A stretch of DNA of 64,000 nucleotides from a virus. The stretch is taken from positions 37,665-101,664 of the IMG/VR virus record IMGVR_UViG_3300032323_001417. One strand, written 5' to 3'. This document shows, piece after piece, positions 3,404-47,869 of the stretch (its first letter is position 1; the number at the start of each line of letters is the position of its first letter). Under the pieces are notes generated by a model. The model was not told the origin of the DNA. It saw only the letters and a list, made by a program, of their open reading frames with translations, and made no database searches. The position numbers and the translations under genes were made by a program.

Positions 3404-3775
3404 ATGGATTATCTAGAAGGATTACAAAAACTGCCAAACAAGCCAAAAGTAAGCTACGTTGAAAACGATGCTGAATATGGTCTATACGTTTGGAAAACAG
3501 AAACAGGCAGAATATTTGGAGATGGAGATGGAAGTTTTATGAATATTCCAGCCAGAAAATATGATTTGACTGCTATTAATAGAATTACACAAGCTGCAGC
3601 ACATTACGGAGCTGGTCCAGGCAAGGCAGTATTTATGCCAGGAGTTACAAGAATTACAGAAGAAGAGCACTCTGTTCAAATTGATAGAATGAAGCAAGGA
3701 TACATTCCAAGTGAATTTGACACTGGTGCTTTTGCTGATGCTGCAAGGGGGCTAAAAGAGCATGGAAATGACTAA
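3404..3775 (+). CDS. Hypothetical protein preceding portal
   Basis: 123-aa ORF with its own promoter, overlapping the portal start. Confidence 0.6.
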   Translation: MDYLEGLQKLPNKPKVSYVENDAEYGLYVWKTETGRIFGDGDGSFMNIPARKYDLTAINRITQAAAHYGAGPGKAVFMPGVTRITEEEHSVQIDRMKQGYIPSEFDTGAFADAARGLKEHGND

Positions 3776-5321
3776 TGAAGTAATTGCTAGAATTGATAAT
3801 CTAGACAGGAATAAGCCATCTGCAAATAAAACAGATGACTTTATGACAGAATCAGATCTTGTAAAAAGTTTTGATGGAATTGACGCAAACTTTAAGAGAA
3901 GAATTTCAAGAATGAGCAAAGCCTACACTGGTCAAGATGGTGCAAAGTCTAAGCAGCTATTTCCAGAACAAGATGTAACTACAGCTTACGGTCTTTTCGA
4001 TGTTGTCTTGCCACCATACAATCTTGATGAACTGGCATTCTTTTTTGATAACTCTTTTGCAAACCATGCTGCAATTAATGCAAAGGTTGCAAATACCGTT
4101 GGTCTTGGATACGGCTTCATAATGTCTGACATTGTTAAAGCAAGAATAGAAGAGATTGAAGATACGAATCAAAGAGTTAGAGCCCAAAGAAAAGTTGAAA
4201 GGGCAAAGTCTGAACTTGCAAATTGGCTTGAAGAACTAAATGATGAAGACACCTTTACCCACGTCCTTGAAAAAGCAATGACGGATTATGAGGCAACTGG
4301 TAACGGATATATTGAAATTGGAAGAAAGAATACTGGAGAAATTGGATACATTGGTCATATTCCTGCTACAACAGTTCGTGTAAGACGTATGCGTGATGGC
4401 TATGTACAGATTGTAAATCAAAGAGTAGTTTACTTTAAAAACTTTCAAGACAAAAAGACAGTAAATCCTGTAACAGCAGATCAGAGACCAAATGAACTTA
4501 TTCATATTAAAAAGTACAGCCCTAAGAACACATACTACGGAGTTCCAGATGTTGTTTCTGCTGCAACATCAGTAGTTGGAGATCAACTTGCTGCAAGATA
4601 CAACATTGATTATTTTGAGAATAAAGCAGTGCCAAGATATATTGTTACATTAAAGGGTGCAAAGCTAAGTTCAGAAGCAGAAGACAAGTTGTTTAGATTC
4701 CTACAGTCTGGTCTTCGTGGACAAAACCATAGAACACTTTATATCCCACTTCCTGGAGATGGTCCAGACAACAAGGTTGAATTTAAAATGGAGCCAGTTG
4801 AAAATGGAATTCAAGAAGGCTCGTTTGATAAATACAGAACTTCAAATGTTCACGACATTCTTATGGCACATCAGGTTCCAATTTCAAAAGTTGGATCAGA
4901 CCCTGGCAGTTCAATTGCATCTGCACTTGTTTCAGATAGAACTTTCAAAGAGCAGGTTGCAAGACCGTCTCAAAAGAATTTAGAAAAAACAATCAATAAA
5001 CTTATTAAAGAAAAAACAGACATTCTTTTGCTAAAGTTTAACGAACTAACTTTGACTGATGAAAATACTCAAAGTCAAATTGATGAAAGATATCTAAGAG
5101 CACAGGTTGTTGTTCCAAATGATATCAGACCTAGACTTGGACTCCCAGTAGTTCCACAAGGAGATACTCCAGTAGTTATGACCCCTCAACAACGTGCAGA
5201 ACAGAATGCTCAAATGTCTGGAACAAGACAAAGAGATCAGCAAAGAACTGATCAGACATCCGATTCTACCTCAACCACTACAGGAAGAAATCCTGGTGGC
5301 GAAGGAAGATCTGTAGTATAA
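3762..5321 (+). CDS. Portal protein (HK97/PBSX-like)
   Basis: TGNGYIEI, ELIHIKKYSP..YYGVP, YFEN.AVP and ILMAHQVP motifs; sits before protease and capsid. Confidence 0.9.
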   Translation: MEMTNEVIARIDNLDRNKPSANKTDDFMTESDLVKSFDGIDANFKRRISRMSKAYTGQDGAKSKQLFPEQDVTTAYGLFDVVLPPYNLDELAFFFDNSFANHAAINAKVANTVGLGYGFIMSDIVKARIEEIEDTNQRVRAQRKVERAKSELANWLEELNDEDTFTHVLEKAMTDYEATGNGYIEIGRKNTGEIGYIGHIPATTVRVRRMRDGYVQIVNQRVVYFKNFQDKKTVNPVTADQRPNELIHIKKYSPKNTYYGVPDVVSAATSVVGDQLAARYNIDYFENKAVPRYIVTLKGAKLSSEAEDKLFRFLQSGLRGQNHRTLYIPLPGDGPDNKVEFKMEPVENGIQEGSFDKYRTSNVHDILMAHQVPISKVGSDPGSSIASALVSDRTFKEQVARPSQKNLEKTINKLIKEKTDILLLKFNELTLTDENTQSQIDERYLRAQVVVPNDIRPRLGLPVVPQGDTPVVMTPQQRAEQNAQMSGTRQRDQQRTDQTSDSTSTTTGRNPGGEGRSVV

Positions 5322-5370: not shown

Positions 5371-6768
5371 ATGACTAATTTAAGCAAGGCTTATTGGACA
5401 TCAGATAACGATGATATCAAGTTATCAATGCCAATCGCTAAAGTAGATGTAGAGCGTAGAATCGTTTCTGGATTTGCTACGCTTGATAACATTGACAAGC
5501 AAGCAGACATTGTTCCTACTGATGTTAGCATAAAAGCCTTTGAGATGTTCCGTGGTAATTTAAGAGAAATGCATCAGTCTATTGCAGTTGGCAAAGTTGT
5601 TAATTTTAGACAAGAAAAGTTTTTTGACAAGTCTACAGACAAACTTTACAACGGTGTTTATGTAGACGCATATATTTCTAAAGGTGCTCAGGATACCTGG
5701 GAAAAAGTTCTTGATGGCACTCTTTCAGGTTTTTCAATTGGCGGAGTAATCAAAGATTCAGAAAATAGCTGGGATGAGAATATTGATAAGACAATTAGAA
5801 TTGTCAAAGACTATGAACTTCATGAACTATCTTTGGTAGACAATCCAGCAAATCAATTTGCAAATGTCGTGTCAATCCAGAAAGTTAACAAGGATGAACA
5901 AATTGATGGTATAATTGCAAAAGCAGATCTTGAAAATGTCTACTGGTGTGAGAATGACGGTATAGTCAGACTTTCAGAAGTTGATGATTCAAGTTGCCCA
6001 TCATGTGAAGTCAGTATGAAAAATATTGGTTTTGTAGAGACAAAGGATACAGAAAAAGCTATGACAGTTAAATCAATTTTAAATAAGTTTATTGGTTCTA
6101 CAGACCTTGCTAAATCTGAAGATGTTTCCGAAACCCCAGAAACTTCAGGCGAAACGCTTGAAACAGCGATTGACAATAATGCGTCAATTGTAAAAAACAA
6201 TATAGAGGAGGAGAACAACGTGTCAGAAGATAATACAGTAGTAGAAGAGACCGTTGAAGAAGTTGCAGCTGAAGAAGCTGTTGCTGAAGCTCCTGCCGAA
6301 GAAACCGTAGAAAAGTCAGTTGACGCAGTTGACGCTGTTGAGGAAACAGTAGCTAAGTCTGCTGATCCAGAAGAAGCACCTGCAGAAGAAGTTGCAGAAG
6401 AAGTTGCTTCTGATGACGTTGAAGTTGAGAAGTCTGTTATTGCAGAAGATACAACCGATTCTGAGCTTGCAAAAGCTGTTGACGAAATTAAGGTTTCAGT
6501 AACAGAGGCAGTGAGTGAACTTATTTCAACAATGAAGTCACTAAATGAAGAGATTGCAGACCTTAAAAAAGGTCACGCCACAGTAGCAGAAGAAGTTGCT
6601 GGAGTAAGAGGCAGTCTTGAAGAGTTTGGAAAGCGTGTAGATGGTCTAGAAGACGAAACCGCTGTCCGCAAGTCTGGCGATCTTGGCGGGATCGTTCAGG
6701 GCAATACAATAAGAAAAGGGTCTATGTGGGGTGGACGTTTCCTAAATTCCGCTGACCTATATCATTAA
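5371..6768 (+). CDS. Prohead protease (HK97/XkdF-like) fused to a Zn-ribbon and an acidic scaffold region
   Basis: RIVSGFAT..DKQADIV, REMH, GFSIGG and ELSLVDNPAN motifs; C..CPSC; Glu/Ala-rich coiled-coil C-terminus. Confidence 0.88.
   Translation: MTNLSKAYWTSDNDDIKLSMPIAKVDVERRIVSGFATLDNIDKQADIVPTDVSIKAFEMFRGNLREMHQSIAVGKVVNFRQEKFFDKSTDKLYNGVYVDAYISKGAQDTWEKVLDGTLSGFSIGGVIKDSENSWDENIDKTIRIVKDYELHELSLVDNPANQFANVVSIQKVNKDEQIDGIIAKADLENVYWCENDGIVRLSEVDDSSCPSCEVSMKNIGFVETKDTEKAMTVKSILNKFIGSTDLAKSEDVSETPETSGETLETAIDNNASIVKNNIEEENNVSEDNTVVEETVEEVAAEEAVAEAPAEETVEKSVDAVDAVEETVAKSADPEEAPAEEVAEEVASDDVEVEKSVIAEDTTDSELAKAVDEIKVSVTEAVSELISTMKSLNEEIADLKKGHATVAEEVAGVRGSLEEFGKRVDGLEDETAVRKSGDLGGIVQGNTIRKGSMWGGRFLNSADLYH
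6220..6768 (+). CDS. Probable nested in-frame scaffold protein (internal GTG start)
   Basis: GGAGGAG at 6207-6213 lies 6 nt before an in-frame GTG at 6220, at the start of the acidic region. Confidence 0.6.
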   Translation: MSEDNTVVEETVEEVAAEEAVAEAPAEETVEKSVDAVDAVEETVAKSADPEEAPAEEVAEEVASDDVEVEKSVIAEDTTDSELAKAVDEIKVSVTEAVSELISTMKSLNEEIADLKKGHATVAEEVAGVRGSLEEFGKRVDGLEDETAVRKSGDLGGIVQGNTIRKGSMWGGRFLNSADLYH

Positions 6769-6792: not shown

Positions 6793-7788
6793 ATGACAGA
6801 AAATAATGAAATTTTAGAAAAAGCGGCTGCAGCTGGTACTATCGCATCTGGTGGTATTGGTGGAGTAAGTACTCCAGCAGCTGGAATTCTTGACAATACT
6901 AACCCAGTTGGTGATCTAGTGTCTGATGGCGGTATTTTGCAGCCTGAACAGTCACGTCAGTTTATTGAGTATATCTTTGAACAGCAGGTTCTAGCCCAAG
7001 ATGGTCGTAGAGTCACAATGAGAGCTAACACAACTGAACTTGAGAAGATGAATGTTGGAGAGCGTGTAATCCGTGCAGCAGCACAGGCAGACGCAACCTA
7101 CACTAACGCTGATGTACAGTTTACAAAGGTTACTCTTACAACCAAGAAGATTCGTCTTGATTGGGAAGTTTCGACTGAAGCTCTTGAAGATAATATCGAA
7201 GGTGCTGGTCTGGAGGATCACTTGGTCCGTACAATGACCCGTGCGTTTGCTAACGATCTTGAAGATCTAGCCATCAATGGTACAGGAGCTGGTACAAACA
7301 ACTTCCTGAACATCCTTGAAGGTTTCGTATCAATCGAAGCCGATGGTAATTCAGCAACTTATGGTACAACTATCGAAAGTTTGCAGGGACTTGTTCTTGC
7401 AATGCCTCGTAAGTACCGTGGTTCCCGTTCAAACATGAAGTTCTATGCAGACACTGAAACCGTTGCTGCAATAATCAACGGTCTTGGTTCTTCTGGTAAC
7501 TTGAATTCAGAGCGTATCATTGAACGTGTAGTTGATGGAGTTGCTCCGTCAACTCTTGGTGCACCAATTCAATATCGTGTTCTAGGTCTTCCATTGGTTG
7601 AAGTTCCTTTGATGCCAGCTGGTTATGTATCACTTACATTCCCAGAAAACCGCATCTGGGGCTTCCAGAGAGACGTAACAGTACACCGTGAGTTCAAGCC
7701 AAAGAAGGATACAGTAGAATATACCGTATTCCTACGCTTTGGTGTAGCAGTTGAAGAAACTGATGCAGTAGCATTCATGCAAGACTAA
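6793..7788 (+). CDS. Major capsid protein (HK97 fold)
   Basis: GGILQPEQSRQFI, EALEDNIEG and DLEDLAINGTG motifs; strong RBS GGAGGTG; terminator follows. Confidence 0.9.
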   Translation: MTENNEILEKAAAAGTIASGGIGGVSTPAAGILDNTNPVGDLVSDGGILQPEQSRQFIEYIFEQQVLAQDGRRVTMRANTTELEKMNVGERVIRAAAQADATYTNADVQFTKVTLTTKKIRLDWEVSTEALEDNIEGAGLEDHLVRTMTRAFANDLEDLAINGTGAGTNNFLNILEGFVSIEADGNSATYGTTIESLQGLVLAMPRKYRGSRSNMKFYADTETVAAIINGLGSSGNLNSERIIERVVDGVAPSTLGAPIQYRVLGLPLVEVPLMPAGYVSLTFPENRIWGFQRDVTVHREFKPKKDTVEYTVFLRFGVAVEETDAVAFMQD

Positions 7789-35500: not shown

Positions 35501-35824
35501 GGTGCAAATAGAATTTCTGAGGCTATTCCAATTGATGAATTAAAAGAGCATAAAGAAAATCCACTTATAAAGTTTTTAAATTATAAGCAGATACCATTTG
35601 CAAATGATGAACACTTTGTGCTATCATTTACTCCTAGAGTTACTAAAGCTGGAAAGAGAATGGCTAATATGATTGTTGCCAATAGTTCAAGAGAAATGAC
35701 TGCTGCAATGGTGTTCCCAACAATGTTCTCTACTGGATACATGAAGTGCCAGCCTGGAAAAGTAGCAAAGATTAATTTTGGTGAAACAAAAGAAGGAACT
35801 ATTACATTGAAGGAAGTATTATAA
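32555..35824 (+). CDS. dnaE: DNA polymerase III alpha subunit
   Basis: PHP domain HVHTHYS/TDHG; GPGRGSAAGS; PDIDSD; KLDVLGL; FNKSHA. Confidence 0.97.
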   Translation: MTYVPLHVHTHYSLMDGVATPEEYAKRASEIGLSAIAITDHGVLSGHRPMYRAAKANGIKPILGIEGYITADRFDNRDKSERTEPLDMVYNHIVLLAKNDKGLENLNKLNELAWTEGYYRKPRIDFEILSKYRDGVIVLSACMSGLLAKAIEHKEYAAAKKHMTWFKENFGDDFYVEVMPHNPAELNKELLEMADTYNVKPVVTPDCHHSDKSQKVIQEMMLLLNTHAKLNKESTFDKASKIEDPMKRLDYLYGEDRMMSFRSFDIHLLSYEEIKSAMQQQGIKREDIYENTVEISNKVEEYTIKSNLDLLPIKVENPNEELLALASRGLVLKGLSENKEYLDRLNLELEVIKSKNFSPYFLVVHNMLNWAKDQGIMVGPGRGSAAGSLVCYALGITEIDPIEYGLLFFRFINPDRDDFPDIDSDIADDRRDEVKAYLEREYKNVASIATFLAFKDKGVVRDVARAFNIPLNDVNKVLKGVDSWDDFTRSANAQWFRMKYPEIVKYGEQLRGRIRGTGIHAAGVVTAKDSIFKYAPLETRIAPGSKERIPVVAVDMEEAAEIGLIKLDVLGLKTLTVIDQTIKTIKERHGTEINLKQIPLNDKKVFEMLSEGRTKGVFQCEATPYTNLLVKMRVSNFDELVASNALVRPGAMNTIGKSYIARKHGREMVEYIHPSMNDYLKDTYGCVLYQEQVMQACVVLGGMTMVEADKVRKIIGKKKDAKEFDIFKDKFVNNAEKHIGIRAKDLWHDFEAHAGYSFNKSHAVAYSTLSYWTAWLKYHYPIEFMFSLLKSEKDSDTRTEYLIESKRMGLSLKLPHINESDADFKIEGKGIRFGLAAIKWLSEGVANKIIAGRPFDSKEQFKNFAIKKGSGINSRAVEALDLIGALTFEDNPRDEVKVRENLYEYLNLPELNTSVPQHYYAYIDLVEDFDEQGVFVLLGIAKNIKRGKGWSRVEIMDSTGVIGIFDDEETKIEPGRTYLILAGANRISEAIPIDELKEHKENPLIKFLNYKQIPFANDEHFVLSFTPRVTKAGKRMANMIVANSSREMTAAMVFPTMFSTGYMKCQPGKVAKINFGETKEGTITLKEVL

Positions 35825-36151
35825 ATGGCTATTATTATTGATGAATTTGCAGCAGTATTACATGCAAATGCAAGAGACAAAGGATTCTGGGATGACAATA
35901 ACGGAACGATCTTTTATCTAAAGCAACTTGCAATGGTGCACTCAGAGGTCTCTGAGGTGCTTGAAGCAATACGCAAGGAGAAGGGCGATGATCAAGTAGT
36001 AGAAGAACTAGCTGACGTTATTATTAGAGTCTTAGATTTGTATGCTGGTTTAGTTAGAGATGGATATACATCACTATCTCTTGAAGAGTCTTTAAAAAAT
36101 AAGGCTAAGATAAATACAGAACGTCCAAAAATGCACGGGGTACTAGCATGA
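35825..36151 (+). CDS. MazG-like nucleotide pyrophosphohydrolase
   Basis: SEVSEVLEA.RK...EELADVIIRVLD. Confidence 0.85.
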   Translation: MAIIIDEFAAVLHANARDKGFWDDNNGTIFYLKQLAMVHSEVSEVLEAIRKEKGDDQVVEELADVIIRVLDLYAGLVRDGYTSLSLEESLKNKAKINTERPKMHGVLA

Positions 36152-37161
36152 GTAAAATAGATCTTGATGATTTCTTATCCCAGCTAGACCCTAAGTTGCG
36201 TAAAAAGATAACAAGTGGAAACACCATTGAAATAACTAAGCAGAAGACACCAAGCATTAGCCTAAACAATGCATTAAAGGGTGGCTTTGGATATGGTCGT
36301 CAAGTTCTTATTTGGGGAAACAAGTCTGCAGGAAAGTCTTCATTCTGTTTACAGATGATTGCTGATGCACAAAAGGATGGCAAGATTTGTGCCTGGATTG
36401 ATGCAGAAGCATCCTTTGATCCAGAGTGGGCAAGAAAACTTGGGGTAGATGTTGATCAGCTAATTTATTCAAATGCTAGAAGTATGAATGAGATGGTAGA
36501 TGTTGGAGTCCAGCTTATGAAAGCTGGAGTAGACGTTCTAATTGTTGATTCTATCTCTGCACTTCTTCCTGCTATTTATTTTGAAAAGGATTCAGAAGAG
36601 TTAAAGCAGTTAGAGAATACTAAACAGATTGGTGCAGAGGCAAGAGATATGACCAACGCAGTAAAGATGCTTAACTATGCAAACAATAATGACAAGCCAA
36701 CCTTGCTTGTTTTAATTTCTCAACAAAGAAATAATATTGGTGCAATGTTTGCCTCGCATCAACCAACTGGTGGACACGCTGTTAAGTTCTTTAGTAGCAC
36801 GATTGTAAAACTGTGGTCAAGTGAGTCTGACAATCAGGCAATCAAGGGAAAGATAGTTTCAGGAGATAAAGTTATTGAGTCTAAAATTGGTCGTGTAGTT
36901 AACTGGCACGTTGATTTTAATAAGACTGGTCCAGCATTTGTCGCAGGTTCTTACGACTTCTATTTTGATGGAGATGGCTCTATGGGTGTAGACAAGATTG
37001 CAGATCTAGTTGATACCGCAGAGCTTGTTGGTGCTATTCAAAAGGGTGGAGCCTGGTACACTATCGGAGAAGAACGATTGCAGGGTAGAGCAAAAGTCAT
37101 TGAGTGGCTAAAAGAAGACCCTAAAAGAGTTTTAGATTTAGAAGCAAAACTAGATGTATAA
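36148..37161 (+). CDS. recA: RecA-like recombinase
   Basis: GNKSAGKS, WIDAE, IVDSI, TGGHAVKFFSS, GAWY. Confidence 0.92.
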   Translation: MSKIDLDDFLSQLDPKLRKKITSGNTIEITKQKTPSISLNNALKGGFGYGRQVLIWGNKSAGKSSFCLQMIADAQKDGKICAWIDAEASFDPEWARKLGVDVDQLIYSNARSMNEMVDVGVQLMKAGVDVLIVDSISALLPAIYFEKDSEELKQLENTKQIGAEARDMTNAVKMLNYANNNDKPTLLVLISQQRNNIGAMFASHQPTGGHAVKFFSSTIVKLWSSESDNQAIKGKIVSGDKVIESKIGRVVNWHVDFNKTGPAFVAGSYDFYFDGDGSMGVDKIADLVDTAELVGAIQKGGAWYTIGEERLQGRAKVIEWLKEDPKRVLDLEAKLDV

Positions 37162-40045: not shown

Positions 40046-40325
40046 AAGAAAAATAACTTATTTAGATAGGTTTGAAAGAAAGTTCTCAATGATTACTGAG
40101 AGTGGTCATGAAGTAAGTAAGGGTGACTTAATTAAGATTACTGGAGAGTATGGAGCTATCTTTAAGTTTCAATGTCTAGTCAAAAATCCCGAAAATGGTG
40201 TAGAATGGATAGACTGCTTTCAAATGCTGAAGGATATGTCTGGACCAACTAGGTCTTTTTATCCTGACAGGGTTAAGGCAGTAAAGAAGAGAGGTAAGCG
40301 TGTCAAGCGAAGCAGCGTTAGTTAA
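40038..40325 (+). CDS. Hypothetical SH3-like protein
   Basis: KGDLIKITGE...RSFYPDRVK. Confidence 0.5.
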   Translation: MAKRKITYLDRFERKFSMITESGHEVSKGDLIKITGEYGAIFKFQCLVKNPENGVEWIDCFQMLKDMSGPTRSFYPDRVKAVKKRGKRVKRSSVS

Positions 40326-40824
40326 TCATTTAGATCTTGTTAACAAGGTTGCATCAGAGTACCTAAAAGGTTCAGATGCCTCAGAGATTGCAAAAATTTT
40401 AAGCCTTCCAAGAGCAAAAGTTACAGAGCTACTTACTGACTGGAGAGTTATGGCTGCAAACAACCAAGCTATCCATGCTCGTGCAAAAGAAGCCCTTGCT
40501 GGTGCAGACCAACATTACTCTTCACTAATTAAAAAAGCTTATGAAGTTATTGACTCTGCAGATCAAACTGCAAATCTAACTGCCAAGACAACATCTATTA
40601 AACTTATCGCTGATATTGAAAGCAAAAGACTTGAGATGTTGCAAAAGGCTGGACTCCTAGACAACCAAGAATTAGCAGACGAACTTTTAGAAACAGAAAG
40701 AAAGCAAGAAATACTTATAAGTATTCTTAAAGAAGTAACTTCATCCTGCGACTCTTGTAGACCAAAAGTTTTAACAAAACTTTCTCAAGTTAATGAGGGT
40801 GGGGTAGTTGTAATTGACAATTGA
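40300..40824 (+). CDS. Probable terminase small subunit (HTH plus helical)
   Basis: N-terminal HTH; overlaps the terminase large subunit start. Confidence 0.55.
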   Translation: MSSEAALVNHLDLVNKVASEYLKGSDASEIAKILSLPRAKVTELLTDWRVMAANNQAIHARAKEALAGADQHYSSLIKKAYEVIDSADQTANLTAKTTSIKLIADIESKRLEMLQKAGLLDNQELADELLETERKQEILISILKEVTSSCDSCRPKVLTKLSQVNEGGVVVIDN

Positions 40825-42598
40825 TATTAGCGATTTTATGGAGGCTCTTGATGAGTCACCATTTTCAGAAACTCCAGTTGACGTTGTAACATTTGTTACA
40901 GGTGAAAAGTATTTAAATCAACCAGATTTATCAGAGTATCAATATACTCTTGTTGAATGCATGAGCCAAATTTATCAAGAAAAAGATTTGATTAGATACA
41001 TGGGTGAAGAGGCTGGTAAAGAGCACTACAAAAAATACACCAAGAGTGAAATTATTATGCAGCTTGGAAAAGGTAGTGGAAAAGATTATACATCTACCGT
41101 TGGGTGTTCTTATTTAGTCTATAAGTTACTGTGCTTAAAAGATCCATCAAGATATTTTGGTAAGCCATCTAATGATGCTATTGATATTATGAATGTTGCT
41201 ATCAATGCTCAACAGGCTAAGAATGTTTTCTTTAAAGGATTTAGAAGTAAGATAGAGGGGTCTCCCTGGTTTGCAGGAAAGTTTTCTCCACCAAAGATTG
41301 ATAGCATTGAATTTGATAAAGCTATTACCGTATATTCTGGTCACTCAGAAAGAGAATCTGCTGAAGGTCTAAACTTAATGCTTGCAATTCTTGATGAGAT
41401 TTCTGGATTTGCAATGGAGTCTGCAAGTGGAAATGATCACGCCAAAACTGCTGACAATATTTATAAAGCATTCCGTGGATCTGTTGACTCTCGCTTTCCA
41501 GACTTTGGCAAGGTAGTTCTTCTTTCATTCCCTCGTTTTAAAGGTGACTTTATTTCAACAAGGTATGAAGATGTTATTGCAGAAAAAGAAACCATTGTAA
41601 GATCGCACGAGTTTATTTTAAACCCAGCACTATCAGAAGATGATCCACAAAATAAGTTTACTGTGGAGTGGGACGAAGATCATATCAATTCCTATAAACT
41701 TCCAGGAGTCTTTGCACTTAAAAGACCAACTTGGGAGATTAATCCTACAAGAAAGATTGAAGATTTTAAATTAGCTTTCTTTACAGATATGCCAGATGCA
41801 CTAATGCGTTTTGCCTGTATGCCAACTACATCCTCTGATGCTTTCTTTAAAAATAGAGAAAAGCTCGGAATGGCATTTAAAAAGCATAACCCTATTGATG
41901 TTGGTAAAAGAATAGAAGAATCATTCCAACCAGATCCTGAAGTAACATACTATGTCCACGCTGACCTGGCACAAAAGCACGATAAGTGTGCCGTGTCTAT
42001 TGCTCACATTGATAAATGGGTAAGTCTACAATCGTTTAATGATTACCAGCAAATTGTTCCCTTTGTTGTGGTCGATGCAATTGTTTACTGGGAACCTAAA
42101 AAAGAAGGTCCAGTAGATTTATCAGAAGTAAAGAATTGGATTATTAATTTAAGAAGGCTTGGTTTCAATTTAGGCTTAGTAACATTTGACCGTTGGAATT
42201 CTTTTGATATTCAAAGAGACCTAAGTAGTGTGGGCATAAAAACAGAAACACTGTCTGTGGCTAAGAAACACTATGAAGATCTTTCTATGCTTGTTTATGA
42301 AGAAAGAATAGTTTTACCTCAAATAGATTTATTACTTGAGGAAATGCAGGAACTTAGAATTATGAATAATAATAGGGTAGACCACCCTAGAAAAAAGTCT
42401 AAGGACCTTGCAGACGCTATGTGTGGATCTGTATATAATGCAATCAGCCATACAAGAAGAGAAAAAATTCAGGAAGTAGAAATTCATACCTATCAATCTC
42501 GTCCTAAAGTTGACAAGGATGATAGTAAAATGGTAAAATCTAAACCTGAGATGACAGAAGATATCAAAAAGTATCTTATGAATTTTAATTTAATTTAG
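40814..42598 (+). CDS. Terminase large subunit
   Basis: GKGSGKD Walker A; AILDE Walker B; nuclease HADLA..D, FDRW, KDLADA. Confidence 0.9.
   Translation: MTIDISDFMEALDESPFSETPVDVVTFVTGEKYLNQPDLSEYQYTLVECMSQIYQEKDLIRYMGEEAGKEHYKKYTKSEIIMQLGKGSGKDYTSTVGCSYLVYKLLCLKDPSRYFGKPSNDAIDIMNVAINAQQAKNVFFKGFRSKIEGSPWFAGKFSPPKIDSIEFDKAITVYSGHSERESAEGLNLMLAILDEISGFAMESASGNDHAKTADNIYKAFRGSVDSRFPDFGKVVLLSFPRFKGDFISTRYEDVIAEKETIVRSHEFILNPALSEDDPQNKFTVEWDEDHINSYKLPGVFALKRPTWEINPTRKIEDFKLAFFTDMPDALMRFACMPTTSSDAFFKNREKLGMAFKKHNPIDVGKRIEESFQPDPEVTYYVHADLAQKHDKCAVSIAHIDKWVSLQSFNDYQQIVPFVVVDAIVYWEPKKEGPVDLSEVKNWIINLRRLGFNLGLVTFDRWNSFDIQRDLSSVGIKTETLSVAKKHYEDLSMLVYEERIVLPQIDLLLEEMQELRIMNNNRVDHPRKKSKDLADAMCGSVYNAISHTRREKIQEVEIHTYQSRPKVDKDDSKMVKSKPEMTEDIKKYLMNFNLI
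42510..42539 (+). promoter_or_regulatory. Promoter TTGACA-N18-TAAAAT inside the 3' end of terL
   Basis: Consensus -35 and extended -10 upstream of the rmlB-like gene. Confidence 0.5.
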
Positions 42599-42614: not shown

Positions 42615-43628
42615 ATGAGTAAAAGAGTTCTTTTAACAGGTGCAAGTGGTTTTGTTGGAAGCCATGTGCTTAGACACTTGCTGGTAAATACAGATTGGTT
42701 TATAGTTTGTCCAACAACATTTACACACAAAGGTTTAACAGATAGAATTAATGTTGCATGTGACGACTTCCCCGATGCTTACAAGCGTATTAAAGTAATT
42801 AAGACAGACCTTACTGCTCCAATTTCTCCAGTAACATCCCATGCGTTTGGTGAAATTGATTATGTGATTAACGTAGCAAGTGAAAGTCATGTTGATAGAA
42901 GCATTGAAGAGCCAACTCCATTTATTCTAAATAACGTTTCTTTAATTTGTAATATACTTGACTGGGCAAGAGTTGCAAAGCCAGAAAAATTTTTGCATAT
43001 TTCAACTGATGAGGTTTACGGTCCAGCTCCAAAGGGACATGCCCATAAAGAGTGGGTAGATCAGTACTTCCCAAGTAACCCATACTCTGCTTCTAAGGCA
43101 GCACAAGAAAGTATTGCGTTTTCATATTGGAGAACTTATGGAGTTCCAATTGCAATTACAAATACCATGAATATTATTGGTGAGACTCAGGACACTGAAA
43201 AGTTTATGCCAATGGTAATTAAAAAAGTTCTTAATGGAGAAACCATGAAGATCCATGCATCATCAGAAGGTGAGATTGGAAGTCGTTTTTACTTACATGC
43301 TAGAAATCAGGCAGACGGTCTTTTGCATGTTCTTAAGCAACATTTCCCAGCTTATGGAGAATCTGATGTACCAGCAAAGTTTCACATTGTTGGCGAAAGA
43401 GAAGTAGACAACCTAGAAATGGCTCAAATGATTGCCTCAGCAGTTGGAAAGCCATTGCGTTATGAGTTAGAAGATTTCCATTCATCACGACCAGGGCATG
43501 ACTTACGTTATGCTTTAGACGGAAAAAAGATTGCTGACACTGGCTGGGTATCCCCAATGCCACTAGAAGAGTCAATTAGAAAAACTGTTGAATGGACTTT
43601 AAGCCATCCAGAATGGCTAAGTTTGTGA
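42615..43628 (+). CDS. rmlB: dTDP-glucose 4,6-dehydratase-like NAD-dependent epimerase/dehydratase
   Basis: TGASGFVG, ASESHVDRSI, STDEVYG, YSASK, RPGHDLRY. Confidence 0.88.
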   Translation: MSKRVLLTGASGFVGSHVLRHLLVNTDWFIVCPTTFTHKGLTDRINVACDDFPDAYKRIKVIKTDLTAPISPVTSHAFGEIDYVINVASESHVDRSIEEPTPFILNNVSLICNILDWARVAKPEKFLHISTDEVYGPAPKGHAHKEWVDQYFPSNPYSASKAAQESIAFSYWRTYGVPIAITNTMNIIGETQDTEKFMPMVIKKVLNGETMKIHASSEGEIGSRFYLHARNQADGLLHVLKQHFPAYGESDVPAKFHIVGEREVDNLEMAQMIASAVGKPLRYELEDFHSSRPGHDLRYALDGKKIADTGWVSPMPLEESIRKTVEWTLSHPEWLSL

Positions 43629-44656
43629 AAGAATATTTAGCAAATAATTATATTTGTTTTGACGATATCCTTATGGTTCCACAATACTCAGAAGTTGTGA
43701 GCAGATCTCTTGTAGATCTAAAGATGCATATTGGTGGAAGTTCTTGGCTAGACTTTCCAGTAATTGCATCACCTATGGATACTGTTTGTGAAAAAGATAT
43801 GGCAATTGCAATTGCTGAATCTGGTGGTATTGGAATTATTCATAGATTTATGTCAGCAAAAAAGCAAATAAAAATGGTTGAAGAAGTTCATAGCCATAAT
43901 GATCTTGGACTTCCTGTTGGTGCAGCATTGTCAACTACTTTTGTTGAAGAGCATGTTGATAAGTTAATTAAATCAGGAGCATCAATGCTTTTAATTGATA
44001 CTGCTAATGGTCATAGTAAAATGGCAATTGATGCAGTTGTAAGATTAAAAAATATTGTAGGAGATAGTGTTCATATTATGGCTGGCAATGTTGCAACAAT
44101 AGAGGGGTATATTGCTTTAGATGTTGCAGGTGCTGATTCTATCAGAGTTGGTATTGGTGGCGGTAGCATGTGTACCACGAGACTCGTATCTGGTCATGGT
44201 ATTCCAACACTATCTTCAATTATAAACGTGCGAGAAGCAAAAGATAAGTTTGGCTTAAAGGCTGGAATTGTTGCAGATGGTGGAATTAGAAATACTGGAG
44301 ACATAATTAAAGCATTCGCAGCAGGAGCAGATTCCGTAATGCTTGGATCAATGTTGGCTGGCACTGACGAATCTCCAGGGTCTTTACATTTTAAAGGTGA
44401 TAAAAAATTTAAAGCATTTAGAGGAATGGCTAGTAAAGAAGCTAATAAAGATAAAGATATTGCAGTTGCAGAAGGAGTCTCTACAATGATTCCATACAAG
44501 GGATCTGTGAAAGATATTTTTAAAGATATTAAAGGTGGTATTGGAAGTGGATGCTCTTATACTGGAGTAGACTTTCTTTGTAATTTATATCAAGAATCCA
44601 TGTACACAAGGGTGTCACCATTAACTGTAAAGGAGTCGTTGCCTCATGGAAGATAA
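43625..44656 (+). CDS. guaB: IMP dehydrogenase/GMP reductase family protein lacking CBS domains
   Basis: [40 protein letters not shown]; GTGA overlap suggests start at 43625. Confidence 0.85.
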
Positions 44657-45005: not shown

Positions 45006-45020
45006 GATATAATAGTAGTT

Positions 45021-46337
45021 ATGGATGTCATTAAATCAGCAGAATGGGAAGGCGAACCCCTTTACAACATGCTTTCAGAAGATGAAAAAGCCTTTGCAGA
45101 TTCATTATTAAAATTAACAGAAGAGCTTGGACCACTAGATCAGTCAGAAGGTATCTGGATTGGTTATGAAGATGGTTCTACAAATCAAAATGCTTCCATT
45201 GGCGTTAAGTGTGGAAACTGTGCACTTCATAAATCTGCAGTTGCTTGTGCAATTATTTCACAACAGATTGAAGAAGAAGGTGCTTGCAGACTTGCAGTAA
45301 TTCCAGATGGGTATGTCAATTCCGATATGAAAAATTCGGGAGAAGAGTTTGAAGAAATGATTCCTGAAATGTCAAAAGCAGATTCAGTTAGAGTTGGTCA
45401 GATGGTTTCTTGGAATTCTAGTGGTGGAACTGCAAGAGGAAAAGTTGTAAGAGTTGTTAGAAGTGGTTCTATTAATGTTCCTAATTCTGATTTTACAATC
45501 ACAGGAACTCCAGATAACCCAGCAGCACTTATTAGAATTTATAGAGATGGAAAACCAACAGATACTTTGGTTGGTCACAGAGTAGACACTCTAAGGGTGT
45601 CAACTTCAAAATCAGAAGATGGCGTTATCGGAAATGATGATGTTCCAAATAGAAGAGCTCACTCAATGGAAGATTGCAATGATAAAAATTGTCCAGAACA
45701 TCGTATGGGTAAAAAAGATTATTCTGATAAAGAAAGACAGATGTTAGCTCGTAGAGATATGGCTTTGCCAGATGGATCTTTTCCAATTGTTACTGCAGCA
45801 GATTTAAGTAATGCAGTTCAAGCAGTTGGTCGTGCATCAAATTATGCAAGAGCTCGTAATCACATCATAAGAAGAGCAGAAGCACTTGGTAGAACAGACT
45901 TGCTTCCAGAAGAATGGAAGCCAAAGTCTGAAAGAAAAGGATACGATGTAGAGAAAAGAGACGTTTCTGATATTGATTTAAAGCCAACCGAGTCTATGTC
46001 TAACAATGCTAAAAGAGGTCTTGAACTTAGAGCAAAGTTTGGTAGAGGCGGAACTGCAGTTGGAGTTGCTCGTGCCCGTGACTTAAGTAATCGCACAAAC
46101 TTAAGTCCAGAAACTGTTGCAAGAATGTATTCATTCTTTTCTAGACATGAAGTAGACAAGAAAGGCAAGGATTTTAACAATCCAGACCGCCCTTCAAATG
46201 GAAAAATAGCCTGGTTACTTTGGGGTGGAGATTCTGGGTATGCTTGGTCAAAACAAAAGTGGGAAGCAATTCAAAATGCAAGAGCATCTAAATCAGATGA
46301 TACTTGGAAAGACTCACCATTTTCTTTTTATAAATAA
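45021..46337 (+). CDS. Multi-domain head-associated protein (HiPIP-like Cys domain, Tudor/HVA1-like domain, two capsid-maturation-associated domains)
   Basis: CGNC..C..GAC; VGQMVSWNSSGGTARGKV; LPDGSFPI...AVGRA; RGGTAVGVARA...RM.SFFSRH...AWLLWGG. Confidence 0.6.
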   Translation: MDVIKSAEWEGEPLYNMLSEDEKAFADSLLKLTEELGPLDQSEGIWIGYEDGSTNQNASIGVKCGNCALHKSAVACAIISQQIEEEGACRLAVIPDGYVNSDMKNSGEEFEEMIPEMSKADSVRVGQMVSWNSSGGTARGKVVRVVRSGSINVPNSDFTITGTPDNPAALIRIYRDGKPTDTLVGHRVDTLRVSTSKSEDGVIGNDDVPNRRAHSMEDCNDKNCPEHRMGKKDYSDKERQMLARRDMALPDGSFPIVTAADLSNAVQAVGRASNYARARNHIIRRAEALGRTDLLPEEWKPKSERKGYDVEKRDVSDIDLKPTESMSNNAKRGLELRAKFGRGGTAVGVARARDLSNRTNLSPETVARMYSFFSRHEVDKKGKDFNNPDRPSNGKIAWLLWGGDSGYAWSKQKWEAIQNARASKSDDTWKDSPFSFYK

Positions 46338-47387: not shown

Positions 47388-47601
47388 TTTAGATAAGATG
47401 GAATCCATTGTAAGCAGCAACCCATACTTAACATGGGATGGCTGGAATGTTGTATTTCTTGAAAAAGATGAACAGGCTAGTCTAAAAAAGAATGCAGCCT
47501 TTGTTGATTCTACTTGGCACAAGAAAGTTGTGTTTGAAAATACTGGTGGAGTATGGGACATTCCAGACTCTATATTAAGGAAGGGCGATGTACAAGTTTG
47601 A
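47374..47601 (+). CDS. Hypothetical protein
   Basis: LTWDGWNVV; overlaps whiB. Confidence 0.6.
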   Translation: MKVSDLDKMESIVSSNPYLTWDGWNVVFLEKDEQASLKKNAAFVDSTWHKKVVFENTGGVWDIPDSILRKGDVQV

Positions 47602-47869
47602 TGAAAAAGCTTTATGCCTTAATATGGATACAAATCTTTTCTTTGATCAATATGAAGAAAATCCAGAAGTTTCAAAAAAAGTAGATCTCTTGTGTATAAA
47701 GTGTCCAGCACAAAGACAGTGCTTAGCATATGGCGTAAGTAATGCTGAGTGGGGTGTTTGGGGTGGCGTTTATTTAGAGGGCGGAAAAATATCTAAAGAA
47801 TTTAATAGTCATAAAGAAAAAACTGACTGGTTTAGTGTTTGGTCTGGAATCACTATGGAGACTAAGTAA
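47588..47869 (+). CDS. whiB: WhiB family transcription factor
   Basis: C...FF...CIKCP...CL...WGVWGG. Confidence 0.9.
   Translation: MYKFDEKALCLNMDTNLFFDQYEENPEVSKKVDLLCIKCPAQRQCLAYGVSNAEWGVWGGVYLEGGKISKEFNSHKEKTDWFSVWSGITMETK

What the first reader, a model, noticed from the sequence alone, without database searches (positions are those of the whole stretch)
45021..46337. Four-domain protein punctuated by prohead-protease-like K-S/A sites: candidate capsid-packaged polyprotein
Seen: the domains (Cys-rich HiPIP-like, Tudor/HVA1-like, LPDGSFPI domain, AWLLWGG domain) are separated by VIKSAE, MSKAD, TSKSED, MGKKD, VEKRD and ASKSDD. The same x-x-K-[SA] pattern recurs in the protease/scaffold (LSKA, IAKAD, LAKSED, VEKSVD, VAKSAD, VEKSV, LAKAVD, VRKSGD), the capsid N-terminus (LEKAAA) and the portal N-terminus (LVKSFD, MSKAY). 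The gene lies far from the head module but has a -10-only promoter like those of the structural genes. Known: the HK97 protease cleaves its capsid protein at a Lys-Ser bond. Inference: the protein is loaded into proheads and cut into small internal proteins, a second, head-based delivery route.
Basis: partly seen in the sequence, partly recalled or inferred. Interest (0 to 1): 0.72.

Follow-up and report, generated by a model that had tools for sequence, protein, structure and literature searches.

The report
Modular candidate head-cargo protein of an actinophage
A 438-residue phage protein is built from four small folded modules joined by lysine-centred linkers that look like cutting sites of the phage's own head protease, and in many other phages the same modules are fused to head-building proteins, so it is probably loaded into the young capsid and cut into small internal proteins, although no experiment shows this yet.

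Summary
ORF 45021-46337 (+) encodes 438 aa. It has four confidently folded modules: a 4-Cys HiPIP-like domain, Hva1_TUDOR, the LPDGSFPI module and the AWLLWGG module. All six quoted Lys motifs lie in low-confidence linkers or termini.

Within the 101.7-kb genome, the motif is enriched only in this protein and in the S78 protease/scaffold (p about 0.0005-0.003 each). The motif was defined post hoc, so this is weak evidence alone.

The stronger evidence is comparative:
- Close relatives swap, delete or add modules exactly between these Lys sites.
- In 150 non-redundant homologues, unrelated modules carry the same hydrophobic-x-K-[SA/KR]-x-[DE] flanks.
- 27 of the 50 longest homologues contain an HK97-type prohead protease domain, 10 a capsid domain and several a portal domain.
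- One S78 protease/scaffold carries two of the modules between the same junctions.
- A short C-terminal Trp peptide closes 18 of 115 stand-alone relatives and 0 of 35 head-fused ones. It resembles the conserved scaffold C-terminus.

Correction: the gene is 38 kb from portal/protease/capsid but only three genes downstream of the large terminase.

Best reading (about 0.5): a prohead-targeted protein cut by the protease. Delivery into the host is inferred only. This is a new variant of known head-internal protein systems. The scan made a similar note on another genome.

The parts
45021..46337 (+). Target ORF, 438 aa: modular candidate head-cargo polyprotein
   Evidence: Relatives of 88-97% identity and the same length occur on many viral contigs.
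45008..45013 (+). TATAAT hexamer 7 nt before the ATG, with no Shine-Dalgarno sequence (leaderless-type arrangement)
   Evidence: A similar ATATAATAG stands before the protease gene 5371, but also before 60514. Another TATAAT stands before 50765.
45027..45044 (+). Site 1, VIKSAE (K5), at the N-terminus
   Evidence: K is present in 14/15 aligned relatives. In longer relatives the same junction (AIKSD-EWEG) links an extra N-terminal module to D1.
45042..45335 (+). D1: acidic 4-Cys domain (C64, C67, C76, C89), HiPIP-like
   Evidence: pLDDT 93-97. No Pfam HiPIP hit. A BFVD hit is named as a HiPIP-profile protein. The nearest Atlas named cluster is a HiPIP-profile cluster, score 0.86, a lead only.
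45369..45383 (+). Site 2, MSKAD (K119), in the linker D1 to Tudor
   Evidence: pLDDT below 50 at 106-118. K in 20/20, P1' A/S in 19/20. K[SA] lies within 8 aa upstream of Tudor in 41/57 non-redundant homologues, against a background of 0.10.
45381..45590 (+). D2: Hva1_TUDOR / SH3-like barrel, basic (cleavage fragment 120-197: pI 10.8)
   Evidence: Pfam E 1.5e-7. Structural matches to Tudor, PWWP and KOW domains, Z 6-7. pI.
45603..45620 (+). Site 3, TSKSED (K197)
   Evidence: pLDDT below 50 at 198-202. K in 15/20. In relatives, the stretch between site 2 and site 3 (the Tudor module) is replaced by a Cys-containing mini-module.
45660..45704 (+). H214-x4-C219-x4-C224-x2-H227 mini-motif in the long linker
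   Evidence: Conserved in relatives and deleted as a cassette in P0064. Low pLDDT.
45705..45719 (+). Site 4, MGKKD (K231), N-boundary of D3
   Evidence: K in 15/15, followed by K/R-D/E-Y. About 20 of the 26 non-redundant instances of the LPDGS[FY]P module (by eye) are preceded by a Lys followed by [KR]-[DE]-[YFV].
45720..45920 (+). D3: LPDGSFPI helical module, basic (cleavage fragment 232-312: pI 9.5)
   Evidence: Helices 236-246, 259-269 and 275-288, pLDDT 54-85. It lies at the C-terminal end of S78 protease/scaffold proteins of Gordonia phage ChisanaKitsune, of actinophage DSL-LC01 and of P0272.
45948..45962 (+). Site 5, VEKRD (K312), N-boundary of D4
   Evidence: K in 20/20, P3 V/M/L/I in 20/20. 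The pattern K-x-hydrophobic-x-D-hydrophobic-D-L-K precedes D4 in many non-redundant homologues.
45966..46295 (+). D4: AWLLWGG five-helix module, basic (cleavage fragment 313-424: pI 10.1); near-invariant R-H-E-x-D and W-G-G-D
   Evidence: pLDDT 94 when folded alone. No solved relative: Foldseek best E 1.3, VIA best Z 5.3. No PDB sequence hit to this domain; the only weak matches, E at least 0.13, align to other parts of the profile. 8171 clusters at 50% identity match the protein. It forms the N-terminus of protease-capsid fusions.
46284..46301 (+). Site 6, ASKSDD (K424)
   Evidence: K in 20/20, D426 in 19/19.
46293..46334 (+). C-terminal tail with the Trp peptide (TWKDSPFSFYK)
   Evidence: W-x-[GDNE]-[STGK]-x-[FL] occurs in the last 28 aa of 18/150 non-redundant homologues (about 1.2 expected). 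All 18 are stand-alone proteins; none of the 35 head-fused proteins has it.
5371..6768 (+). S78 (HK97-type) prohead protease fused to an acidic coiled-coil scaffold; carries the same Lys motif
   Evidence: Pfam, NCBIfam and PHROG hits. H68 and S122 are invariant. K184, K315/S316, K368 and K434-S-G-D are conserved.
6712..6765 (+). Scaffold C-terminal tail ...KGSMWGGRFLNSADLYH
   Evidence: W453-Y464 are invariant in 15 homologues. Diverged scaffolds end KKSKWNGSFLGS and SKWGGHFLS in Streptomyces phage Stanimal.
6793..7788 (+). HK97-fold major capsid protein; N-terminal E-I-L-E-K-A-A-A
   Evidence: E-[IL]-L-E-K-A is kept down to 44% identity. Stanimal has E-M-I-E-K-V.
3762..5321 (+). Portal, with an N-terminal extension carrying LVKSFDG and MSKAYTG
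   Evidence: Both motifs are conserved in five relatives.
40814..42598 (+). Large terminase, three genes upstream of the target
   Evidence: 57% identity over 95% of its length to the TerL of Streptomyces BE-cluster phages. PHROG TerL families. Synteny with Stanimal gp99/gp100.

Best explanation
The gene encodes a string of four small, independently folding modules: an acidic 4-Cys HiPIP-like domain, a basic Tudor barrel, a basic LPDGSFPI helical module and a basic five-helix AWLLWGG module. The modules are joined by flexible linkers, each centred on a conserved Lys in the context hydrophobic-x-K-[S/A/K/R]-x-[D/E].

The most likely mechanism has four steps:
1. The protein is co-assembled into the procapsid. 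It is addressed there by its short C-terminal Trp peptide, which resembles the conserved C-terminus of the phage's own scaffold, and/or by the modules themselves.
2. The HK97-type (S78) prohead protease cuts after the linker lysines. This protease also has to dismantle its own fused scaffold, which carries the same motif.
3. Cutting releases fragments of about 12, 8, 4, 9 and 12.5 kDa and removes the addressing tail.
4. The folded, mostly basic fragments stay inside the head with the DNA.

What is shown: the anatomy, the motif and its conservation, module shuffling at the sites, the fusions of the modules to head proteins in other phages, and the distribution of the tail. What is inferred: loading, cleavage and retention. 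What the fragments do afterwards is open: DNA-associated internal proteins ejected into the host, as in T4, or helpers of assembly.
For: 1. Anatomy. The AlphaFold2 model has four confident domains, and all six Lys sites lie in low-pLDDT linkers or termini.

2. Conservation. The Lys is the conserved anchor (14/15, 20/20, 15/20, 15/15, 20/20, 20/20) while P2 varies freely. P3 is hydrophobic at four of the six sites.

3. Cassette behaviour. Relatives of 63-92% identity add, delete or swap modules exactly between the Lys sites. Examples: Tudor is replaced by a CW...VPNCVPV mini-module, the HCCH linker is deleted, and DUF5824, DUF3721, a second Tudor or an N-terminal module are added. New junctions carry the same motif.

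4. Generality. In 150 representatives of clusters at 50% identity, K[SA] lies within 8 aa upstream of Tudor in 41/57 cases (background 0.10). The LPDGS module is preceded by K-[KR]-[DE]-[YF], and D4 by a Lys 8-10 residues upstream.

5. Link to the head. Of the 50 homologues longer than 500 aa, 18 have Peptidase_S78, 9 have S78_2, 10 have Phage_capsid and at least 4 have portal domains.
- P0260 reads D4-Tudor-S78-capsid.
- CRP-811 gp45, S-CBS1 gp04, Vibrio 1.013.O gp07, DC31 gp128/129, ChisanaKitsune gp30 and the DSL-LC01 851-aa protein are further examples.
- The named BFVD hits are mostly prohead protease, XkdF, portal or capsid proteins.

6. Same junctions inside a scaffold. P0272 is an S78 protease whose protease domain is 32% identical to the window's (E 2e-8). 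It has D4 in front and the LPDGS module behind, separated by LAKSVD, VEKREV, VEKSLD, MEKSIE and VEKAVT.

7. The motif in known or expected substrates.
- The scaffold half of the window's protease has 6 matches against 0.89 expected.
- 5 of the 6 Lys residues in its acidic stretch are K-[SA].
- The sites persist in diverged scaffolds.
- The capsid N-terminus keeps L-E-K-A at 44% identity.
- HK97 cuts its capsid protein at K103/S104 in an unstructured stretch (PMC10275583).

8. The tail. A C-terminal Trp peptide is about 15-fold enriched at C-termini and occurs only in stand-alone proteins: 18/115 against 0/35 head-fused. The scaffold C-terminus (MWGGRFL, KWNGSFL, KWGGHFL) is similar and strongly conserved.

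9. Not a DNA-level joint. Codons at the sites differ (AAA TCA, AAG TCT, AAA GCA, AAG GCT), so selection acts on the peptide.

10. Position. The gene lies three genes downstream of TerS/TerL on the same strand, with no convincing terminator between them.

11. Precedent. T4 internal proteins are small, basic, addressed by a short peptide and cut by the prohead protease (PMC9026906). SPN3US head proteins are cut at a short motif (PMC10052503).
Against: - There is no experimental evidence for this protein or any homologue. No virion proteome or N-terminal sequence was found. The host is uncultured.
- The within-genome statistics are post hoc and borderline after multiple-testing correction. The narrow scaffold-derived motif matches no site in the target. 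P3 is not hydrophobic at sites 3 and 6.
- Conserved flanks could be inherited together with each module rather than selected as sites. Lys/Ser/Asp-rich linkers are common.
- Only one HK97 cleavage site (K/S) is documented, and the specificity of S78 proteases is poorly defined.
- In relatives the gene stays 34-37 kb from the protease gene.
- D4 also occurs as a 110-aa stand-alone gene among topoisomerase and primase genes in jumbo phage PaBG.
- The tail resemblance rests on about six residues. It does not co-vary visibly with the scaffold tail in relatives. Within this genome the pattern is not statistically informative.
- The leaderless promoter type is shared with non-structural genes.
Confidence: 0.5

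Rival explanations
1. Prohead-internal assembly accessory, not a delivered effector. The modules help procapsid assembly, for example by contacting the portal or capsid protein, adding scaffold volume or regulating the protease. The protein enters the prohead and is cut like the scaffold. The pieces have no role in the next host cell.
For: D4 is the conserved N-terminus of the protease-capsid fusion in all seven CRP-822-type roseophages and in S-CBS1/S-CBS3. These are small 30-kb genomes with little room for accessories. The LPDGS module sits at the C-terminal end of scaffolds, where coat-binding elements usually lie (ChisanaKitsune gp30). A Tudor domain is embedded in the DC31 scaffold-like protein. 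Several portals carry the modules.
Against: Rapid cassette shuffling among close relatives is more typical of conflict or accessory proteins than of core assembly parts. Folded 8-12 kDa domains would not easily leave through capsid pores. D4 has near-invariant polar residues (R-H-E-x-D, W-G-G-D), which suggests a specific ligand or catalytic site. Homologues are also fused to ART, ParB, HNH, HAD and Dps-like domains, as in polyvalent cargo proteins.
Confidence: 0.2
2. Ordinary cytoplasmic multi-domain protein that is neither packaged nor cut. The Lys-centred linkers are merely flexible hydrophilic joints inherited with each module.
For: The gene lies among replication, recombination and metabolic genes, and stays there in relatives. 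D4 stands alone next to topoisomerase genes in PaBG and is annotated there as DNA-binding. The narrow scaffold motif is absent from the target. There are no experimental data.
Against: This reading does not explain three things. First, 27 of the 50 long homologues carry a prohead protease domain, and others carry capsid or portal domains. Second, unrelated modules share the same Lys flanks, and those flanks are also the only Lys contexts in the acidic scaffold. Third, a C-terminal peptide resembling the scaffold end is confined to the stand-alone forms.
Confidence: 0.22
3. Packaged but uncut 'polyvalent' protein. It enters the head and perhaps the host as one chain, and the Lys motifs are module joints used by recombination rather than by a protease.
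For: Polyvalent proteins of phages are described as multi-domain, mosaic and head-packaged, and some (N4 vRNAP) are packaged unprocessed (PMC5512222). The mosaicism here is strong.
Against: Codons at the junctions are not conserved, so there is no DNA microhomology for recombination. The same motif marks the scaffold and the capsid N-terminus, which are expected protease substrates. The Lys is invariant while its neighbours vary.
Confidence: 0.08

Closest known systems
T4 internal proteins IPI, IPII, IPIII and Alt (capsid targeting sequence plus gp21 cleavage)
   Same: They are small, mostly basic proteins loaded into the prohead core through a short addressing peptide, which the prohead protease then removes. 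Their genes lie outside the main head cluster, and they are ejected with the DNA (PMC9026906). The fragment sizes predicted here (8-12.5 kDa, pI 9.5-10.8 for three of them) are similar.
   Different: T4 uses an N-terminal 10-residue signal and cuts after Glu (the L/I-x-E rule, from my own knowledge). Each T4 internal protein is a separate gene product. Here one chain would yield several products, the candidate signal is C-terminal, P1 is Lys, and the protease is of the HK97/S78 type fused to its scaffold. There is no sequence similarity.
Head and ejection proteins of giant phages (phiKZ, 201phi2-1, SPN3US) processed by the prohead protease
   Same: Many head-internal proteins are cut at a short recurrent motif, often several times within one chain. 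The motif can be used to predict substrates (PMC10052503).
   Different: Those are jumbo myoviruses with a T4-type protease that cuts after Glu, and their propeptides are long and N-terminal. Here the phage is a siphovirus-like relative of Streptomyces BE-cluster phages, and the folded modules themselves are the products.
Polyvalent proteins of phages and conjugative elements (Iyer, Burroughs, Aravind and co-workers 2017)
   Same: They combine several unrelated domains in one polypeptide, are extensively mosaic between relatives, belong to terminase-portal phages and are predicted to be packaged in the head (PMC5512222). Some homologues here carry ART, ParB, HNH or MuF domains.
   Different: Text searches of that paper for Tudor and Hva1 found nothing, and nothing I read there describes D4 or the LPDGS module. 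The window's protein has no recognised enzymatic effector domain. The regular Lys-centred junctions and the scaffold-like tail are not part of that concept.
HK97 capsid maturation: cleavage at K103/S104 and protease encapsidation through a terminal domain
   Same: The protease family is the same (Peptidase_S78). The documented site is Lys-Ser in an unstructured stretch (PMC10275583). A terminal segment of the HK97 protease directs encapsidation, according to Duda, Oh and Hendrix 2013. That paper is not held here and only its title was seen, so the content is from my own knowledge.
   Different: HK97 has no known accessory cargo. Its scaffold is the capsid delta domain, not a protease fusion.
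Encapsulin cargo-loading peptides
   Same: A short C-terminal peptide addresses otherwise unrelated cargo proteins to the interior of an HK97-fold shell (from my own knowledge). Ferritin-like and iron-binding cargo recalls the Dps-like and HiPIP-like modules seen here.
   Different: This is an analogy only. Encapsulin cargo is not proteolytically processed, the peptide motif is different, and no binding was tested here.

Membership tests
Pfam PF11160 Hva1_TUDOR | Score above the Pfam gathering threshold | tested here: met
   Residues 126-178, 31.8 bits against a cut-off of 24.1, E 1.5e-7. The fold matches Tudor, PWWP and KOW barrels at Z 6-7.
High-potential iron-sulfur proteins (HiPIP, PF01355) | Four Cys ligands in the spacing C-x2-C-x(8-16)-C-x(12-14)-C, and a match to the family profile | tested here: inconclusive
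   Four Cys are present as C64-x2-C67-x8-C76-x12-C89 and are conserved in relatives. There is no Pfam hit even at E 1. A BFVD structural hit and the nearest Atlas cluster are named HiPIP-profile proteins (leads only). D1 was not folded or searched alone.
Substrates of an HK97-type (S78) prohead protease | An S78 protease with intact catalytic residues is encoded by the same phage | tested here: met
   Peptidase_S78 and TIGR01543 hits to 5371-6768. H68 and S122 are invariant in 15 homologues.
Substrates of an HK97-type (S78) prohead protease | Lys-Ser/Ala type sites in unstructured stretches, shared with the expected substrates (scaffold, capsid N-terminus) | tested here: met
   HK97 K103/S104. 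Caveat: two sites have K/R at P1', and the narrow scaffold motif does not match the target.
Substrates of an HK97-type (S78) prohead protease | Actual cleavage and presence in proheads | not testable with these tools
   This needs proteomics or co-expression. No published data were found.
Polyvalent proteins (Iyer et al. 2017) | Two to fifteen unrelated domains in one chain, with mosaic architectures among homologues, in a terminase-portal phage | tested here: met
   Four domains. At least ten module types are recombined among relatives. TerL and portal are present.
Polyvalent proteins (Iyer et al. 2017) | Contains effector or anti-defence domains catalogued for that class | tested here: not met
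   Hva1_TUDOR is the only Pfam domain found. Text searches of the paper for Tudor and Hva1 gave nothing. Some distant homologues do carry ART, HNH or ParB domains.
T4-type internal proteins | N-terminal capsid targeting sequence removed at an L/I-x-E site by a gp21-type protease | tested here: not met
   There is no such N-terminal signal or Glu rule. The sites are Lys-centred and the candidate signal is C-terminal. The mechanism is similar, but this protein is not a member.

The most novel reading that the evidence does not exclude
HK97-type phage capsids have a widespread, so far undescribed cargo system with three parts:
- a pool of small portable modules (AWLLWGG domain, LPDGSFPI module, Tudor, HiPIP-like and others, seen in more than 8000 protein clusters);
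- junctions between the modules that are cutting sites of the S78 prohead protease;
- loading either by direct fusion to protease, scaffold, capsid or portal proteins, or, in stand-alone genes, by a C-terminal Trp peptide that mimics the scaffold's capsid-binding end.

This would be a phage counterpart of the encapsulin cargo-loading peptide. It would give siphoviruses T4-like internal proteins that travel with the DNA into the host.
Probability: 0.3. Interest if true: 0.8.

Novelty: new variant of a known kind. Interest (0 to 1): 0.62.

Why it matters
Proteins that travel inside phage heads are well documented mainly for T4, P1, P22-like and jumbo phages. For HK97-type siphoviruses, the commonest capsid design, almost nothing comparable is known.

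If this reading is right, it would have three consequences:
- A very large family of unannotated phage proteins would gain a location and a processing rule. More than 8000 clusters at 50% identity match this protein, and many are mis-labelled 'major capsid protein' or 'capsid maturation protease'.
- The cleavage specificity of a whole branch of S78 proteases could be read from sequence.
- The short C-terminal peptide would be a candidate tag for loading foreign proteins into phage heads.

It would also show that abundant phages of uncultured freshwater Actinobacteria carry internal proteins. One of these is a possible iron-sulfur protein, and another is a conserved helical domain with no solved relative.

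Tried and rejected
- Fold of D4. Foldseek against the PDB gave a best E of 1.3. VIA-align against 48,161 chains gave a best Z of 5.3, generic helical bundles only. A profile search against PDB sequences gave only weak matches (E at least 0.13) that align outside D4. A resemblance I recalled between the R-H-E-x-D motif and the R-H-D motif of small bacterial phospholipases A2 got no support from these searches, and I dropped it.
- Whole-protein fold searches returned only Tudor-like barrels.
- Pfam HiPIP for D1: no hit at E 1. The Atlas lead to DUF6321 for D4 (score 0.86) has no Pfam support.
- DNA microhomology at the junctions as a recombination device is rejected, because the codons differ.
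- Co-variation between cargo tail and scaffold tail in relatives: none was visible.
- Within this genome the tail pattern finds only the two proteins it was derived from, with about 1.4 matches expected by chance. That is uninformative.
- Literature: no paper was found on these modules, and no virion proteomics for any phage carrying them. The Duda 2013 paper is not held.
Gene neighbourhoods of distant metagenomic relatives were therefore examined only through IMG/VR contigs.
- Streptomyces BE-cluster phages share the head genes, the terminase and the synteny. The annotation around their terminase shows no gene with an obviously matching name. Two weak Streptomyces hits were not inspected.
Full report
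**What is there**

The window is the right-hand 64 kb of a 101.7-kb viral record. It has 32-41% G+C and almost all genes lie on the + strand. The head genes are:
- a portal (3762-5321);
- an HK97-type Peptidase_S78 protease fused to an acidic coiled-coil scaffold (5371-6768);
- an HK97-fold capsid protein (6793-7788).

Portal, protease and terminase are related to those of Streptomyces BE-cluster phages (Stanwilliamsviridae), and the gene order is similar. The phage also has WhiB, RecA, Pol III alpha, DnaB, a primase and a RuvC-like gene. It is therefore a low-G+C relative of large actinophages, known only from metagenomes.

**Domains**

An AlphaFold2 model built on 113 homologues has mean pLDDT 82.9. 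It shows four confident domains separated by low-confidence linkers:
- D1 (about 8-105) is acidic. It has four conserved Cys in the spacing C-x2-C-x8-C-x12-C.
- D2 (121-190) is Hva1_TUDOR (Pfam E 1.5e-7). It matches Tudor, PWWP and KOW barrels at Z 6-7.
- D3 (about 236-300) is the LPDGSFPI helical module.
- D4 (316-425) is the AWLLWGG module.

Folded alone, D4 is a five-helix domain with pLDDT 94. It has no solved relative by Foldseek, VIA-align or profile search.

'HiPIP-like' for D1 stays a lead. The Cys pattern fits, and two automatic names point that way. Pfam HiPIP does not match.

If the chain were cut at the six lysines, the pieces would be 12.4 kDa (pI 4.1), 8.3 kDa (pI 10.8), 3.8 kDa, 9.2 kDa (pI 9.5), 12.5 kDa (pI 10.1) and a 14-residue tail.

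**Is the motif more than chance?**

All six sites lie in low-pLDDT linkers or at the termini.

Composition-preserving shuffles over the 104 proteins of at least 80 aa in the genome rank the protease/scaffold and the target first and second for [LIVMAT].K[SA].?[DE]. The counts are 6 against 0.89 (p 0.0005) and 4 against 0.46 (p 0.0015). For a looser form that admits K/R at P1', the target has 6 against 1.08. In the window-only count the remaining proteins together are at expectation.

This is suggestive only. The motif was defined after seeing these proteins, and the p-values barely survive correction. A narrow motif derived from the scaffold alone hits nothing in the target.

**Comparative evidence**

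This is the stronger pillar.

1. The protein has hundreds of metagenomic relatives. Among those of 63-92% identity, the architecture changes by whole cassettes bounded by the lysine sites:
   - Tudor is replaced by a CW...VPNCVPV mini-module;
   - both are present in tandem;
   - the H-x4-C-x4-C-x2-H linker is deleted;
   - an N-terminal module, a second Tudor, DUF5824 or DUF3721 is added.

Each new junction again reads hydrophobic-x-K-[SA]-x-[DE].

2. In the alignment, the Lys is the conserved anchor (14/15, 20/20, 15/20, 15/15, 20/20, 20/20). P2 varies freely. P3 is hydrophobic at four sites.

3. An exhaustive search found 8171 clusters at 50% identity with E of at most 0.001. In the best 150:
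   - K[SA] lies within 8 residues upstream of Tudor in 41 of 57 cases, against a background of 0.10;
   - the LPDGS module is almost always preceded by a Lys followed by [KR]-[DE]-[YF];
   - D4 is typically preceded by a Lys 8-10 residues upstream.

   In protease-capsid fusions the Tudor flank reads R-A-A-P-D-A instead, and Tudor is followed by L-[TR]-K-[IV].

4. Codons at the sites differ, so selection acts on the peptide and not on a DNA joint.

**Link to the head**

Of the 50 homologues longer than 500 aa, 18 have Peptidase_S78, 9 have Peptidase_S78_2, 10 have Phage_capsid and at least 4 have portal domains. One has MuF and one has an ADP-ribosyltransferase.

Concrete cases:
- P0260 reads D4-Tudor-S78-capsid.
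- Roseobacter CRP-811 gp45 and Synechococcus S-CBS1 gp04 begin with D4 directly after the portal gene.
- Vibrio 1.013.O gp07 has D4 at the N-terminus of a 657-aa protein that lies between the MuF and capsid genes.
- Limnohabitans DC31 has D4 fused to an XkdF-type protease and a Tudor inside the next scaffold-like protein.
- Gordonia ChisanaKitsune gp30 is an S78 protease-scaffold ending in the LPDGS module.
- Actinophage DSL-LC01 has an 851-aa S78 protein with the LPDGS module and a C-terminal D1-like Cys domain.

The most telling case is P0272. It is an S78 protease/scaffold whose protease domain is 32% identical to the window's (E 2e-8). It carries D4 in front and the LPDGS module behind, separated by LAKSVD, VEKREV, VEKSLD, MEKSIE and VEKAVT. 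These are the same junctions as in the window's scaffold.

The named BFVD structural hits of the model are mostly prohead protease, XkdF, portal or capsid proteins.

**The motif in expected substrates**

In the acidic stretch 241-370 of the window's scaffold, five of six Lys residues are K-[SA] preceded by hydrophobic-x. K184, K315/S316, K368 and K434-S-G-D are conserved across 15 homologues down to 59% identity. The equivalents persist in a still more diverged scaffold (TLEKAADV, TFSKSVDA, AIKKSSDLG) and in Streptomyces phage Stanimal (AIKKSGD).

The capsid N-terminus keeps E-[IL]-L-E-K-A at 44% identity. The portal's N-terminal extension keeps both of its motifs.

HK97 itself cuts its capsid protein at K103/S104 in an unstructured stretch (PMC10275583).

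**A candidate address**

After the last site, the protein ends with T-W-K-D-S-P-F-S-F-Y-K. A pattern W-x-[GDNE]-[STGK]-x-[FL], usually preceded by K-[KS], closes many stand-alone relatives whatever module comes before it: D4, the LPDGS module, the CW module or the HCCH motif. It occurs in the last 28 residues of 18 of 150 representatives, against about 1.2 expected from its internal frequency. All 18 are among the 115 proteins without protease, capsid or portal similarity, and none is among the 35 with it. My rough estimate for this split is p about 0.01.

The scaffold C-terminus is similar. It is invariant in its lineage as K-G-S-M-W-G-G-R-F-L..., reads K-K-S-K-W-N-G-S-F-L in a diverged relative and S-K-W-G-G-H-F-L in Stanimal.

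Scaffold C-termini generally bind the coat protein. I therefore read the tail as a scaffold-mimicking loading peptide that the last K-S site would remove. This is an inference from about six residues. I saw no co-variation between cargo and scaffold tails.

The gene is 38 kb from the portal-protease-capsid block. It keeps that distance (34-37 kb) in relatives. But it lies only three genes downstream of the large terminase at 40814-42598. That ORF is 57% identical to BE-cluster TerL and matches PHROG TerL families. A probable TerS lies just before it, by synteny. In this phage family the terminase genes sit apart from the other head genes. No convincing + strand terminator separates TerL from the target.

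The TATAAT 7 nt before the ATG is real, and a similar element precedes the protease gene. The same arrangement also precedes non-structural genes, so it says nothing about timing.

**Mechanism and rivals**

Best reading (about 0.5): the protein is loaded into the prohead, cut after the linker lysines by the S78 protease, and its folded, mostly basic pieces are retained. Delivery into the host and an anti-host function are further inferences. I put them at about 0.3.

Rivals:
- An assembly accessory that is cut but not delivered (about 0.2). The conserved D4 at the start of protease-capsid fusions in small phages and the LPDGS module at scaffold ends speak for it.
- A cytoplasmic protein with ordinary linkers (about 0.22). 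Its position among replication genes and the stand-alone D4 next to topoisomerase genes in PaBG speak for it.
- A packaged but uncut polyvalent protein (about 0.08).

**Comparison with the known**

The logic is that of the T4 internal proteins (an addressing peptide plus prohead-protease cleavage; PMC9026906). It also matches the processed head proteins of SPN3US and phiKZ (PMC10052503). The mosaicism is that of polyvalent proteins (PMC5512222).

It differs in the protease family and P1 residue, in giving several products from one chain, in the C-terminal scaffold-like tail, and in the modules themselves, which I found described nowhere. I therefore class it as a new variant of a known kind.

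An earlier first-stage note of this scan (e1-5893703) reports the same pattern of K-A junctions in a four-domain protein of another genome. I did not test it.

**Limits**

- No experiment exists for any member.
- D1 and D3 were not folded or searched alone.
- The Duda 2013 paper on HK97 protease encapsidation is not held. What I say about it rests on my own knowledge.

Noticed in passing
window 40300-42598: The large terminase (40814-42598, 57% identical to the TerL of Streptomyces BE-cluster phages) and a probable small terminase (40300-40824) lie about 37 kb from the portal, after RecA, a Cas4-like nuclease and RuvC. Stanwilliamsviridae have the same unusual arrangement.
   Followed up: partly
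window 200-3385: A 1061-aa ORF (open to the window start, up to 1127 aa) directly upstream of the portal block has no Pfam, PHROG or NCBIfam match. It is not the terminase.
   Followed up: partly
window 5944-6006 (protease/scaffold aa 192-212): An invariant Cys cluster, W-C-x15-C-P-S-C, lies between the protease domain and the acidic scaffold. It may be a small metal-binding insertion. Streptomyces phage Stanimal has the equivalent W-C...C-P-V-C.
   Followed up: no
window 45660-45704: The long linker of the target holds H-x4-C-x4-C-x2-H, conserved in relatives and lost as a cassette in one of them. It may be a tiny zinc knuckle. Relatives carry further Cys-bearing mini-modules (CW..GY...VPNCVPV and an N-terminal GGC.GYAVV...GCH module).
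   Followed up: partly
window 45966-46295 (D4): D4 keeps near-invariant polar residues (R375-H376-E-x-D379, S392, W401-G-G-D404) across thousands of clusters. This hints at a specific ligand or catalytic site in a fold with no solved relative.
   Followed up: partly
L001, L003 (CRP-811 gp45, S-CBS1 gp04) and L006 (DSL-LC01): Public annotations-851-aa multi-part proteins simply 'major capsid protein' or 'capsid maturation protease'. CRP-811 gp45 and S-CBS1 gp04 are accessory modules + protease + scaffold + capsid. The DSL-LC01 851-aa protein has an S78 protease with the LPDGS module and a D1-like Cys domain, and no capsid domain was detected in it. In DSL-LC01 three neighbouring genes carry the protease label, probably through these shared modules.
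   Followed up: partly
window 47588-47869; 36148-37161; 32555-35824; 43592-44656; 42615-43628: WhiB-family regulator, RecA, Pol III alpha, an IMPDH/GMP-reductase-family enzyme and an NAD-dependent sugar epimerase/dehydratase. This gene set fits a phage of low-G+C (freshwater-type) Actinobacteria.
   Followed up: no
window 3404, 5371, 30627, 45021, 50765, 60514 (gene starts): Several genes have a TATAAT-like hexamer (TACAAT at 3404) whose last base lies about 6-9 nt before the start codon, with no Shine-Dalgarno sequence. This suggests leaderless transcripts, as is common in Actinobacteria.
   Followed up: partly
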